64,000 nucleotides of DNA from an uncultured Gammaproteobacteria bacterium (GTDB lineage: Bacteria > Pseudomonadota > Gammaproteobacteria > CAZYIF01). The position numbers were made by a program. Where the stretch lies: NCBI GenBank assembly GCA_964646995.1, contig CAZYIF010000001.1, positions 157,528 through 221,527 on the forward strand, written 5' to 3'. This document shows positions 60,001 through 63,000 of this stretch, in pieces; the first letter of the stretch is position 1; each line of letters opens with the position of its first letter.

Positions 60001-63000
60001 GGGATTAGCTACGGCAGTGTGTGCCAGCATTGGTTGCGCACTTAGCCATACGGTGATGGCATTTTTAATCTGGCGTGTGGTGCAAGGTGTGGGTTTGGGT
60101 GTGTGCATGGGATTGGGACGCACCATCATCGTGGATGTGTTGCATGAGCGCTATGCCTTGGTAGGCGCGTATTTTGCGATGTTTTTGGGTGTGTCGCCGT
60201 TGCTTGCTCCCGTGTTGGGAGGCTATGTGCAAGTGTATTGGGGTTGGCGCGCCAATTTCTTTTTGCTAGCGCTGCTGGTGTTATGTGCGTTGGTTGCTTA
60301 CGCACTCTGTTGCGGTGAGACCAATACCCACAAAGGCAAAAAAGCGTTTAGCCTGTTGGGTGTATGGCGCGACTATCGTGAGTTGTTGTGCCATCGTTTA
60401 TTTATAGCGTGCGCGCTGCTCAGTGGCATGTGTGCGGCAGTGGGCGTGGTCTACGCTACCAGCAGTGCGTTCATCTTACAAATGGAATTTCACTTATCGG
60501 TGGTGCATTACAGTTGGGCGATGATGTTGGTGGGTGCCGCGAATATTCTGGGCAAATTTTTTGGCCCCATGATCATACGACGTTACGGTCGGGATAGTAC
60601 TTTGTGGATCGGCACGGGCATGATTTTTGTGGCGGGGGCTTTAATCTTGTTGGCTGCTCTCTGTCATCTATTGGGCGTGTCGTGGGTTATCGGCATGGTT
60701 ATTGTCAGCGTCACCGGACAAATGCTCATTATGCCTATGTTGGTGGGCCGCGCGTTGACGCCGTTTCATGACAAACGTGGGGCTGCCGGCGCATTATTTG
60801 GTGGTGCACAAATGGTAGTTGCGTGTGTGAGCAGTGTGTTGATGGCGCTGTTCGCACAGGTTGGGGTAATCGCCTTGGGTGTGGCGTATTGTATATTGGC
60901 ATTGTTGTTGAGTGTGATAATTGTAACTATTCAGCGGCAAAAACGCTGAATAGTGACCCTTGATTTTACGCCTAGCCCAGTAAAACTGGGCGTAACGGCT
61001 CTCAAGGGAGAATCGCGATTCTCCCCTTGAGAATCCTCATCGCGTAATGAATAACCTGCATTTACCGGCAAAAAACAGCTTAGCAATTTGCTGAATAGTT
61101 ACTGGTAATCTACACTGTATTGTCGCAACACGTTAAGCAAGCGCGCGCGGTTACTCGTTGATAATGCCAAAGGGGACATGCGCGGTGGGGACTTTGTGAC
61201 TGGCCGATTGGCAATAATTTTGTTTGTCATCAAAGAAAAAGTCGGCAGCAAAGGCTTCTAGGAAATTGGCTTTGTCTAATCCGCCGAGAAAAATAGCTTC
61301 GTCAATGCGTATGTTCCATTCACGTAGTGTGCGAATCACGCGTTCGTGTGCGGGTGCCGCACGCGCTGTGACGAGTGCGGTGCGAATCGGGCACAGGTGT
61401 GCCGGAAATTGTTTTTGCAAGCGGTGCAGTCCGGCCAGGAATCCTTTAAACGGTCCACCGGACAACGGTTGCTTGGCCGACAGACTTTCTTGTTGGTTGA
61501 ATGCGGCTATTCCTTCTGTTTGAAAAACGCGTTCGGCTTCATCGGAAAAAAGTACGGCATCTCCATCGAACGCAATACGCAGTTGTTCGTCTTCATTGCC
61601 CACCGCACTTTGTGACAGAATGGTTGCCGCCGCACAACCGGCTGCAATGGCTTTTTCTACGTCTTCTGGGTGCGCGGATAAAAACAGTTGTGCACCAAAG
61701 GCAGTGAGGTAATGGTATGGGCTTTCGCCACGGGTAAACACCGCACGCGTAATGTCTAATTGATAATGTTGTATGCTGTTAAAAATACGTAAGCCGGTAT
61801 CGGCACTGTTACGTGAAATCAATACGACCTCGACCAGGGCTTGTTGCGTGGTGGGTGAACGTAGAGACAGTAGTTTTTTCACTAAATGAAAAGCGACGCC
61901 GCGTTGCAACATATCGTCTTCATGCGCAATTTGGTAGTTGGCGTAGGCTTCTATGCCTTGCGTTTCAAACACGCGGTGACTGGCATCCAAGTCGAATAAC
62001 GCACGTGATGAAATAGCAATGACTAATTTATGGCTGATATCTTCTGACATAACGCGGCATCCATAAGTATATTTCTCCTGAATGAGTTAGGGCTACATTA
62101 CCTAAATCTGATTCGCTAGCGGTATATTAACCTAAGTATTGCCACGTGTACCACTGTTGCTGCAGTGGGAAATATAATCCCAGTTGTATCACGCGTTGCT
62201 CAATCAGGCGAAAGGCTTTTGCATAGGTTTCCAATTGTTGGCGATAGTTGGCTATTTTGCGTGTCAAGGTATCAGGTAGCGAGGTGTCATCTAGGCTTAT
62301 TTTATAATCGATAATCCAGCGTTGTTGTTCATCGATGAAGGTTCTATCGATAACAAAATGCTGACATTCTCCCTCAATGTATGCAGTGAGGGGGTATTCA
62401 CTGGCGGCATTTGGATGTTGCGCTAGGATCCAGCGTCCGCGTGGGTCATCTAATGTTTGCTCGATGGCACGCATGATACAGTGCGTGGCTGTTGCCACGG
62501 TCTGAGGCCGTGTACCCAGGCTAAGAAGTTGCGTTTTGATCCAGGGATATTGTGCGTCAATGCGTGCGCGTGACCACGTCGCTACGCCTTGCACGCTGAT
62601 CCGTTGTAATAACTTGTGTGCCACACTGCCGATATGGGCAGGATGAGTGGTGGGCGGCGTCATGTCATAGCGCGTCAGTGTGGGTGTATCTGTGGTGGAT
62701 GGCAGACCGTGGTAGTGCCAGGTTGGGGGCAAGGTCCACGTGCTGGGCAGGCGCGCGAGGGTGAGGCGCGGCGTGAGCGGTGCGGCAGCGATCGATGGGG
62801 TGGGTTGCGCGTGCAACTGTGCGGTGAATTCAGTGGCTATGCAGGGCCACAGTTGGTGTAAAAAGCTCGCGTTGTGTACTTTAACGCGAGGAGTGCCATC
62901 TGCCTCAGTGAGGTAGTTAGCGCTGCCTAACAGATGCAATTGTTGGCGTGCACGGGTGGCGGCCACATAGAGCAAACGGGTTTGTTCTAATTGCTCGTGG

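What the first reader, a model, noticed from the sequence alone, without database searches (positions are those of the whole stretch)
60923..60949. The MFS transporter's C-terminus and stop codon are supplied by an inserted family-B repeat
The final 11 codons (VIIVTIQRQKR) and the stop (TGA at 60947-60949) of the 59744 gene lie inside the left arm (gtaactattcagcggcaaaaacgctgaatag) of repeat copy B6. This indicates that the MITE inserted into the 3' end of the gene and re-created a reading-frame end, the gene-tail remodelling known for Rickettsia RPEs and Neisseria Correia elements.
Basis: seen in the sequence. Interest (0 to 1): 0.5.

Follow-up and report, generated by a model that had tools for sequence, protein, structure and literature searches.

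The report
Mobile repeat supplies transporter gene's tail
A 180-bp non-coding mobile repeat (a MITE) sits in the very end of a drug-efflux transporter gene, so the last 8 amino acids and the stop codon come from the repeat; this is real, but the same kind of event is already documented in other bacteria.

Summary
Confirmed, with one correction. The Bcr/CflA-type MFS gene (59744-60949, 401 aa) reads 27 nt into repeat copy B6 (60923-61102). That is 8 codons (VTIQRQKR) plus TGA, not 11 codons; VII lies outside the repeat.

B6 is a true MITE:
- 13-bp perfect terminal inverted repeats (GTAACTATTCAGC).
- An 8-bp target-site duplication: perfect in three family copies, 6/8 at B6.
- Five full copies in the window, and 180-bp relatives in Legionellales and other gammaproteobacterial MAGs.

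The terminal repeat and duplication length match ISBst12-group IS66 elements (12/14 to the published ISDge4 ends). No transposase was found.

The element's terminal palindrome has stop codons in all three frames within 27 nt, so any gene it enters from that side ends within 8 codons. The same palindrome supplies the tail or stop of real genes elsewhere, for example ftsY (…VTIQQNC*) in another MAG.

The ancestral MFS tail could not be observed, because the nearest homologue is only 49% identical. Removing the element and one duplication copy predicts …SVIIYTVLSQHVKQARAVTR*, which is unproven.

The closest precedent is Coxiella QMITE1/QMITE2. Verdict: a new member of a known kind, of low to moderate interest.

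The parts
59744..60949 (+). Bcr/CflA-family MFS efflux transporter gene, 401 aa. Codons 1-393 are native; codons 394-401 and the stop are element DNA.
   Evidence: ORF list. TIGR00710 at 203 bits covering residues 15-393. Pfam MFS_1 at 148.7 bits. 44 homologues of 391-426 aa.
60923..61102 (+). MITE copy B6, 180 bp, the long form of the family. Layout: terminal hairpin, two internal hairpins, an A/T-rich stretch, then the right terminal inverted repeat.
   Evidence: nhmmer full-length match, E=1.1e-42. Alignments with window copies and with copies from other MAGs. RNA fold -66 kcal/mol, z=-7.2.
60923..60957 (+). Terminal palindrome of B6: left inverted repeat, a 7-nt loop, then an inverted copy of the repeat (14-nt arms, 93% complementary).
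   Evidence: the repeat finder I3. The same palindrome stands alone in 44 stretches from other genomes.
60923..60946 (+). Eight element-encoded codons, VTIQRQKR: the last three residues of TM12 plus a +3 charged cytoplasmic tail.
   Evidence: Direct reading of the sequence. Family alignment places the end of TM12 here; homologue tails are 2-19 aa and net positive in 35 of 44.
60947..60949 (+). The transporter's TGA stop codon, inside the 3' arm of the palindrome (GC-TGA-ATAG).
61090..61102 (-). Right terminal inverted repeat of B6 (GTAACTATTCAGC on the minus strand), 13/13 complementary to 60923-60935.
   Evidence: the repeat finder I2.
60915..60922 (+). Left copy of the 8-bp target-site duplication (TGATAATT). 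It is coding: part of V, then I, I.
   Evidence: 6/8 identical to 61103-61110. Only 2.6% of mismatched control flank pairs reach 6/8 or better. Perfect 8/8 duplications flank copies at window 33645, L044 and L005.
61103..61110 (+). Right copy of the 8-bp target-site duplication (TGGTAATC).
61111..61161 (+). Hypothetical relic of the ancestral 3' end (YTVLSQHVKQARAVTR, then TGA at 61159-61161), read in the frame restored by removing the element and one duplication copy. This is inferred, not shown.
   Evidence: Reconstruction. This is the longest open frame of the three after the element, but 16 stop-free codons are expected by chance about 46% of the time. Profile score 481.7 against 480.9 bits for the present tail, which does not discriminate.
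61151..62050 (-). Convergent 5'-nucleotidase gene, complete. Before the insertion its 3' end would have abutted or overlapped the transporter's 3' end.
   Evidence: Pfam PF06189 at 446.8 bits, residues 1-298 matched to profile 1-301 of 302.
58865..59455 (-). Divergent TetR-family regulator, the likely repressor of the transporter gene.
   Evidence: NCBIfam TetR-type matches. The same gene pair appears on Logan contig L001.

Best explanation
A non-autonomous DNA transposon (MITE) inserted into an AT-rich 8-bp target (TGATAATT) in the last few codons of the MFS transporter gene. The element has 13-bp terminal inverted repeats and makes an 8-bp target duplication. It was probably mobilised by an ISBst12-group IS66-family transposase.

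The end that entered the gene is a perfect palindrome with stop codons in all three frames within 27 nt. Translation therefore runs 8 codons into the element (VTIQRQKR) and stops at a TGA in the hairpin's 3' arm. Those 8 residues complete TM12 (VTI) and give a short basic cytoplasmic tail (QRQKR). This matches what homologues have at that position, so the transporter most likely still works.

What was shown: the boundary, the frame, membership of the repeat family, the target duplications in the family, and the stops in all three frames.

What is inferred: the order of events, the ancestral tail (about 16 codons, ending near 61159), retained function, and the parent transposase.
For: - Boundary and frame.
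- Repeat family is non-random: 18 matches against 1.26 expected; five full copies with E-values 1e-27 to 1e-51.
- Target duplication: perfect 8/8 at window 33645, L044 and L005; 7/8 at window 12679; 6/8 at B6. No mismatched control pair reached 8/8 (0 of 1892).
- The other five window copies are intergenic; only B6 touches a gene.
- Stops at element positions 2, 21 and 25 in the three frames.
- The TIGR00710 alignment ends at residue 393, the last pre-element codon.
- No homologue shares the tail; the tail's length and charge are within the family range.
- Independent cases with the same palindrome: FtsY in L045 ends ...ALFSENDTE+VTIQQNC*, whereas E. coli FtsY ends at ...ALFARED; a LuxR-family gene in L010 and the KsgA and PhoH-like genes in L028 stop at the TAA of GTAA.
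- B6 keeps a 20-bp segment shared with relatives in other MAGs. The 160-bp window copies lack it, which fits an older insertion with a decayed duplication.
- Parent element lead: the terminal repeat is 12/14 identical to each published ISDge4 end, and ISDge4 also makes an 8-bp direct repeat (PMC12898284). IS66-family ends start GTAA (PMC12888890).
Against: - No empty-site allele or close orthologue was found, so the pre-insertion sequence is a reconstruction.
- B6's own duplication is only 6/8.
- A homologue profile cannot tell the reconstructed tail from the present one: 481.7 against 480.9 bits.
- No transposase with these ends was found in the window or in the fetched loci.
- Function of the remodelled transporter is untested.
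Confidence: 0.8

Rival explanations
1. Same insertion, but only one codon before the natural stop. If the 6/8 flank match at B6 is chance and no duplication is removed, taking out the 180-bp element alone gives ...SVII-W-TAA (stop at 61106-61108). The element would then have replaced a single residue and the stop, not a 16-residue tail.
For: The element is exactly 180 bp, a multiple of 3. TGG TAA follows it in frame. Control flank pairs reach 6/8 by chance 2.6% of the time. A 394-aa length is within the family range.
Against: The family demonstrably makes 8-bp duplications: three perfect and one 7/8. The 8 bp at 61103-61110 should therefore be a copy of the target, not extra ancestral sequence. 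A tail of a single W leaves TM12 short and uncharged, unlike 35 of 44 homologues. Profile score is 477.5 bits, the lowest of the full variants.
Confidence: 0.1
2. The element landed downstream of the original stop, and the gene was later extended into it by loss of that stop or by a frameshift. This is what happened to enhC and QMITE2 in Coxiella strain Dugway.
For: There is a precedent in PMC5896051. An out-of-frame TGATAA lies directly before the element at 60915-60920.
Against: In the frame that contains TGATAA, another stop lies at 60909 and the upstream translation (WRIVIWHCC*) is not like a membrane helix. The present frame matches the family profile through residue 393. Neither duplication copy holds an in-frame stop in the present frame.
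Confidence: 0.05
3. The insertion inactivated the transporter, which is now a decaying pseudogene. On this view the tail is meaningless read-through.
For: The insertion removes the native end of TM12. No expression data exist. B6 is an old copy.
Against: The ORF is intact over 401 codons with no frameshift or internal stop, and it matches the profile end to end, even though the insertion is old enough for its duplication to have decayed to 6/8. The new tail keeps a hydrophobic helix end and a positive charge.
Confidence: 0.05

Closest known systems
Coxiella burnetii QMITE2 and QMITE1 (Wachter et al. 2018, PMC5896051)
   Same: QMITE2 is 150-190 bp, highly structured, has terminal inverted repeats and 7-11 nt direct repeats of variable sequence, and is mostly intergenic. 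Both families overlap the 3' ends of functional genes, including transporters, by 1-50 bp, changing composition without changing protein size much. The host is from the same broad group, since relatives of the window element were found in Legionellales MAGs.
   Different: Sequence relatedness to QMITE2 could not be tested: no Coxiella chromosome is in the available collections, the paper's supplements hold no sequence, and there is no plasmid match. The element here has a doubled inverted repeat (a palindrome) at one end. Its ends resemble ISBst12/IS66, a link not reported for QMITE2.
ISBst12-group IS66-family insertion sequences (e.g. ISDge4, PMC12898284)
   Same: The terminal sequence GTAACTATTCAGCA is 12/14 identical to each of GTAACTGCTCAGCA and GTGACTACTCAGCA. 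Both make an 8-bp target duplication and both start with GTAA.
   Different: The element here has no transposase gene and is 160-180 bp against roughly 1.5 kb. No autonomous partner was seen in the window or the fetched loci.
Rickettsia palindromic elements (RPE)
   Same: Small palindromic repeats that end up inside protein-coding genes and contribute residues to proteins that remain functional.
   Different: From established knowledge, RPEs insert in frame within ORFs and are translated through, adding an internal peptide segment. They are not characterised by terminal inverted repeats plus target duplications. Here the element terminates the ORF and has classic transposon hallmarks.
Neisseria Correia elements (CREE/NEMIS)
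   Same: Roughly 100-160 bp MITEs with terminal inverted repeats, abundant near gene ends, and able to alter transcripts and ORF ends.
   Different: From established knowledge, Correia elements have 26-bp terminal inverted repeats, duplicate a TA dinucleotide and carry an IHF site. Here the repeats are 13 bp and the duplication is 8 bp, so this is not a member.
MITEAba12 of Acinetobacter (PMC6382973)
   Same: A MITE with stop codons in all reading frames. It is documented to fuse up to 19 element-encoded residues, or a stop, to neighbouring genes.
   Different: MITEAba12 is 113 bp, makes a 9-bp duplication, and its parent is ISAba12 (IS5 family). Its reported 3' fusion truncates the protein by 398 aa and makes a pseudogene, whereas here the gene remains full length.

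Membership tests
[quoted passage not shown] | Small size (under about 500 bp) with no transposase gene | tested here: met
   Copies are 159-183 bp. The only ORF inside B6 is a mechanical 51-aa TTG ORF on the minus strand.
[quoted passage not shown] | Terminal inverted repeats | tested here: met
   13/13 complementary ends, 60923-60935 and 61090-61102. They are conserved in all nine full copies.
[quoted passage not shown] | Target-site duplication of fixed length and variable sequence | tested here: met
   8 bp. Perfect at window 33645 (AAATGCAG), L044 (AAAAAAAT) and L005 (TAAATTTT); 7/8 at window 12679; 6/8 at B6. Control pairs never reach 8/8.
[quoted passage not shown] | Multiple dispersed copies in one genome | tested here: met
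   Five full-length copies, plus partial and diverged copies, in 64 kb.
[quoted passage not shown] | An autonomous IS with matching ends in the same or a related genome | tested here: inconclusive
   No IS66-type transposase among ten 415-559 aa window ORFs, and none seen in the fetched loci. The only support is the literature match to the ISDge4 ends. The rest of the genome was not available.
IS66 family, ISBst12 group (as the source of the MITE) | Terminal inverted repeats starting 5'-GTAA and resembling those of known members | tested here: met
   GTAACTATTCAGCA is 12/14 identical to each ISDge4 end. IS66 ends GTAAGCG... and GTAACCG... are given in PMC12888890.
IS66 family, ISBst12 group (as the source of the MITE) | 8-bp target duplication | tested here: met
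   the ISDge4 direct repeat is CCTCGATG, 8 bp.
IS66 family, ISBst12 group (as the source of the MITE) | Mobilisation by a single-ORF DDE transposase of that group | not testable with these tools
   This needs the whole genome or a transposition assay.
Coxiella QMITE2 | Sequence homology to the CbsR16/QMITE2 consensus | not testable with these tools
   No QMITE2 sequence is available: the supplements hold none and no Coxiella chromosome is in the collections. There is no match in the plasmid collection.
Coxiella QMITE2 | About 150-190 bp, terminal inverted repeats, 7-11 nt variable direct repeats, strong secondary structure | tested here: met
   compared with the description in PMC5896051.
Neisseria Correia element | TA target duplication and 26-bp terminal inverted repeats | tested here: not met
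   Here the duplication is 8 bp and the terminal repeats are 13 bp. The Correia features are taken from established knowledge.
Rickettsia palindromic element | In-frame insertion that is translated through as an internal protein segment | tested here: not met
   The element ends the ORF after 8 codons, and stops occur in all three frames.
Bcr/CflA MFS efflux transporter (the host gene) | Score above the curated TIGR00710 cut-off, with full-length coverage | tested here: met
   203.2 bits against a cut-off of 200.9; residues 15-393 matched to profile 4-380 of 385.

The most novel reading that the evidence does not exclude
The 30-36 bp palindrome at the end of this MITE is two abutted ISBst12-type terminal inverted repeats, GTAACTATTCAGC-loop-GCTGAATAGTTAC. 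It may itself be a minimal mobile element that occurs with identical arms across at least six bacterial phyla, sometimes with perfect 8-9 bp target duplications. Because it carries stops in all three frames, it may act as a portable gene-end cassette that repeatedly rewrites the C-termini or stop codons of real genes, including essential ones (ftsY, ksgA, the MFS gene here). The Legionellales 160-180 bp MITE would then be one lineage-specific elaboration of it.
Probability: 0.3. Interest if true: 0.5.

Novelty: new member of a known kind. Interest (0 to 1): 0.28.

Why it matters
It is a clean, coordinate-exact example of a transposon fragment becoming the coding end of a membrane transporter with no obvious damage. 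It also shows why such insertions are tolerated: this element's terminus has stops in all three frames, and the frame used here encodes a hydrophobic stretch followed by a basic tail.

In practice it warns annotators that C-termini next to such repeats are lineage-specific. It also explains why short-read assemblies break exactly here.

The side observation, the same palindrome across many phyla, could point to a very widespread ISBst12-type transposase activity. That is only a lead.

Tried and rejected
1. **Looking for an orthologue without the repeat.**
   - A full-length protein search gave nothing closer than 49% identity.
   - The best homologues sit in unrelated gene neighbourhoods.
   - Two metagenome scans found nothing: one with the 23 nt left of the junction, one with a wobble-degenerate 3' end of the 5'-nucleotidase gene.
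   - A search with the last 60 aa returned no hits at all, not even the protein itself. This is probably a composition filter, so the search is uninformative.
2. **The JGI contig.** A 1,270-bp JGI contig shows a 24-nt different spacing, but its DNA could not be fetched. Seven guessed 42-aa tails were not in the protein collection.
3. **Scoring alternative tails.** Reconstructed ancestral tails were scored against a profile of 44 homologues. The differences were 4 bits or less, which does not discriminate.
4. **Known RNA families.** No Rfam family matches anywhere in the window.
5. **Regulatory signals.** No intrinsic-terminator-like or promoter-like site lies inside the element, so a terminator role for the hairpin is not supported by that scan.
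6. **Other collections.** The element has no match in plasmids, and the palindrome has no match in viral contigs.
7. **A candidate full-length IS.** In L006 the hairpin and a distant arm with 2 mismatches looked like IS ends, but the interval holds folD and other housekeeping genes. Rejected.
8. **Literature search for the repeat sequence.** Only irrelevant hits.
9. **A frameshift origin for the read-through.** Rejected, because the alternative frame has an earlier stop and does not look like a membrane helix.
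Full report
**1. The observation**

The region holds one credible gene on the plus strand, 59744..60949, 401 aa. It is a Bcr/CflA-type MFS efflux transporter: TIGR00710 at 203.2 bits against a cut-off of 200.9, with residues 15-393 matched to profile positions 4-380 of 385, and Pfam MFS_1 at 148.7 bits. A divergent TetR-family regulator lies at 58865..59455 on the minus strand. A complete convergent 5'-nucleotidase gene lies at 61151..62050 on the minus strand (PF06189, 446.8 bits).

The sequence GTAACTATTCAGC begins at 60923, which is the first base of codon 394. The gene therefore reads GTA ACT ATT CAG CGG CAA AAA CGC TGA, i.e. VTIQRQKR*. Eight codons plus the stop lie in the repeat, not eleven. 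The VII codons (60914-60922) are flanking DNA.

**2. The repeat and its boundary**

The 13-mer, with up to 2 mismatches, occurs 18 times in the window against 1.26 expected, and none of 100 shuffles reached 18. A profile built from four copies finds these in the window:
- Full-length copies at 12679-12838 (-), 33645-33803 (+), 49863-50022 (-) and 60923-61102 (+, this is B6).
- A 289-bp composite copy at 26478-26766 (-).
- A partial copy at 47250-47348.
- Weaker matches to the element body only at 6830-6977, 8069-8218 and 38156-38291.

Similarity among copies starts exactly at GTAAC and ends exactly at GTTAC, and the flanks are unrelated. The boundary at 60923 is therefore sound.

The element's layout is as follows. 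A terminal palindrome comes first: a 13-14 nt arm, a short loop, then the inverted arm. Two internal hairpins and an A/T-rich stretch follow. A third copy of the arm forms the right terminal inverted repeat. The RNA folds far better than shuffled sequence (z = -7.2 and -8.0).

**3. It is a transposon-type MITE**

Across nine full copies (five in the window, four in other genomes) the flanks show an 8-bp direct duplication of variable, AT-rich sequence:
- Perfect at window 33645 (AAATGCAG), L044 (AAAAAAAT) and L005 (TAAATTTT).
- 7/8 at window 12679.
- 6/8 at B6 (TGATAATT at 60915-60922 and TGGTAATC at 61103-61110).

In mismatched control pairs, 8/8 never occurred (0 of 1892), and 6/8 or better occurred in 2.6%.

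The published ends of ISDge4, an ISBst12-group IS66-family element with one 449-aa transposase and an 8-bp direct repeat, are GTGACTACTCAGCA and GTAACTGCTCAGCA (PMC12898284). The element here ends GTAACTATTCAGCA, which is 12/14 identical to each. IS66-family ends typically begin GTAA (PMC12888890). This makes an ISBst12-type parent the best lead. However, no such transposase is among ten 415-559 aa ORFs of the window.

**4. Relatives elsewhere**

A scan of species-representative genomes for the palindrome gave 44 stretches. Full 178-183 bp relatives of the whole element, at roughly 75-80% identity over the aligned stretches, occur in three places:
- An uncultured Legionellales MAG (L044, L005, L030).
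- A Gammaproteobacteria MAG (L039).
- A 3-kb contig binned as Cyanobacteriota (L004).

B6 shares with these a 20-bp segment (AGAATCGCGATTCTCCCCTT) that the four 160-bp window copies lack. B6 is therefore the older long form and the 160-bp copies are a later deletion subfamily. This agrees with B6's decayed target duplication.

**5. Why the gene ends inside the element**

Entering the element from the palindrome side, stops occur at element positions 2-4 (TAA), 21-23 (TGA) and 25-27 (TAG) in the three frames of the consensus. In B6, whose loop is longer than in every other copy compared, they occur at positions 2, 25 and 39. Any ORF invaded from this side therefore ends within a few codons. No special "re-creation" of a stop is needed.

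All other window copies are intergenic; B6 is the only one touching a gene. Without the 188 bp (the element plus one duplication copy), the two convergent genes would abut or overlap. Almost any insertion between them would have had to hit a coding tail.

**6. Independent examples with the same palindrome**

- In L045 (a Gammaproteobacteria MAG) the ftsY gene ends ...EALFSENDTE + VTIQQNC*. The last 7 codons and the TGA come from a stand-alone palindrome, in the same frame as here (Pfam SRP54). E. coli FtsY aligns up to ...EALFARED, where it ends. The extra residues are therefore an addition.
- In L010 a LuxR-family gene stops at the TAA of GTAAC.
- In L028 the KsgA and PhoH-like genes stop at the TAA of GTAA(C/T).

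Tail or stop donation by this terminal repeat is thus recurrent.

**7. What the ancestral tail was**

This could not be observed. The nearest homologue is 49% identical, and the best homologues have different neighbours. Two metagenome scans found nothing.

In a 45-sequence alignment (the window protein plus 44 homologues), TM12 ends at about VTI. It is followed by a variable tail of 2-19 aa (median 7) that is net positive in 35 of 44 homologues. No homologue has VTIQ or QRQ. The element-encoded VTI + QRQKR (+3 charge) therefore imitates the normal end.

Removing the element and one duplication copy restores a frame that reads ...SVIIYTVLSQHVKQARAVTR* (409 aa, stop at 61159-61161, overlapping the 5'-nucleotidase stop by 11 nt). 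This is plausible: it continues the hydrophobic stretch, then turns basic, and it is the longest open frame of the three. But 16 stop-free codons arise by chance about 46% of the time. A homologue profile scores the variants within 5 bits of each other:

| Variant | Score (bits) |
|---|---|
| Reconstructed 16-aa tail | 481.7 |
| Present tail | 480.9 |
| ...SVIIW* | 477.5 |
| Truncated at residue 393 | 477.1 |

The alternative that the element was removed with no duplication (...SVIIW*, TAA at 61106) is kept as a minor rival.

A frameshift or stop-loss origin is unlikely. The frame that contains the upstream TGATAA has an earlier stop and is not helix-like. The present frame matches the family profile up to residue 393.

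**8. Small detail on the loop**

B6's loop (GGCAAAAAC, 9 nt) differs from all other copies, whose loops are 5-7 nt. With a 6-nt loop, as in L044, the tail would be VTIQHKC* (in L004, VTIQQKC*). With the 5-nt loop of the 160-bp copies it would be VTIQQNAE*. B6's version gives the most basic tail. Whether that reflects selection under the positive-inside rule is speculation from a single case.

**9. Comparison with what is known**

The closest precedent is Coxiella burnetii QMITE2 and QMITE1 (PMC5896051). QMITE2 is 150-190 bp, has terminal inverted repeats and 7-11 nt variable direct repeats, and is very stable when folded. Both families overlap the 3' ends of functional genes, including transporters, by 1-50 bp. 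The authors note that protein size is preserved while composition changes. Homology to QMITE2 could not be tested.

MITEAba12 also has stops in all frames and fuses residues to neighbouring genes (PMC6382973).

Correia elements (TA duplication, 26-bp terminal repeats) and RPEs (translated through, in frame) fail their defining features here. They are analogies only, not the family.

**10. Verdict**

This is a new member of a known kind, of low to moderate interest.

The more unusual lead is the cross-phylum, stand-alone ISBst12-type palindrome. Perfect 8-9 bp duplications flank it at L007, L017, L021 and L037. It deserves its own survey.

**Unresolved**

A 1,270-bp JGI contig has the identical 5'-nucleotidase, but a convergent gene that ends 24 nt closer than in the window. 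Its DNA was not retrievable, and guessed tails were not found.

Logan contigs from three runs are identical to the window. They break at 60997 and 61017, on either side of the start of B6's internal 20-bp palindrome (61006-61025).

Noticed in passing
Loci L002-L045 (genome contigs), e.g. L007 686-718, L017 7773-7808, L021 5226-5261, L037 1217-1248: The palindrome GTAACTATTCAGC-N4-10-GCTGAATAGTNAC stands alone (30-36 bp) in MAGs and genomes from many phyla: Bacteroidota, Bacillota, Desulfobacterota, Chloroflexota, Spirochaetota, Calditrichota and Gammaproteobacteria. Four copies have perfect 8- or 9-bp flanking direct repeats. It looks like a minimal two-repeat mobile element with ISBst12-like ends.
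   Followed up: partly
L045 3203-3234 (hairpin) and 3211-4398 (-): The ftsY gene of a Gammaproteobacteria MAG takes its last 7 codons (VTIQQNC) and its TGA from the stand-alone palindrome, in the same frame as the MFS gene. E. coli FtsY ends 9 residues earlier in the alignment.
   Followed up: yes
L010 2765-2796; L028 2609-2621 and 5019-5031: A LuxR-family gene, and the KsgA and PhoH/PIN genes, use the TAA inside the repeat's GTAA as their stop codon.
   Followed up: yes
window 59517-59537 and 59570-59590: Two identical 21-nt copies of TATTTTTAACTAAACAGTTAA, each holding the inverted repeat TTAACT-AAAC-AGTTAA, lie 53 bp apart. They bracket or overlap a strong promoter-like site (TTGACA-17-TATATT, 59545-59573) between the TetR gene and the MFS gene. 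They are likely TetR operators.
   Followed up: no
window 26478-26766: A 289-bp composite copy of the repeat family. The internal body (hairpins plus the A/T stretch) is duplicated in tandem between one pair of ends.
   Followed up: partly
window 6830-6977, 8069-8218, 38156-38291, 47250-47348: Weaker matches to the body or to one end of the element only. They may be a second, related repeat family or decayed copies. All are intergenic.
   Followed up: no
window 33637-33683: In copy 33645, the 8 nt after the palindrome (CTGCATTT) are the reverse complement of its target duplication (AAATGCAG), which extends the hairpin to 22 bp. Copy 12679 has a similar target (AAATGTAC/AAATGCAC). This may reflect a target preference, or chance.
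   Followed up: no
window 60997 and 61017 (ends of Logan contigs L001, L049-L051): Short-read assemblies from three runs (SRR10036080-82) are 100% identical to the window. They break on either side of the start of B6's internal 20-bp palindrome (61006-61025), a repeat-induced assembly gap.
   Followed up: yes
JGI metagenome 3300059473, 1,270-bp contig (no DNA available): It has the identical 5'-nucleotidase protein, but the convergent partial gene ends 177 nt away instead of 201 nt. This is a possible allele with an indel in the element or the tail, and the best available comparator for the junction.
   Followed up: partly
window 56295-58547, 47776-49032, 51191-52738, 54331-55749: Several large ORFs (418-750 aa) have no Pfam match. 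They sit among housekeeping genes (glnA, pepA, lptF/G, eptA-like) and a TraI_2-like gene at 24854-26302.
   Followed up: no
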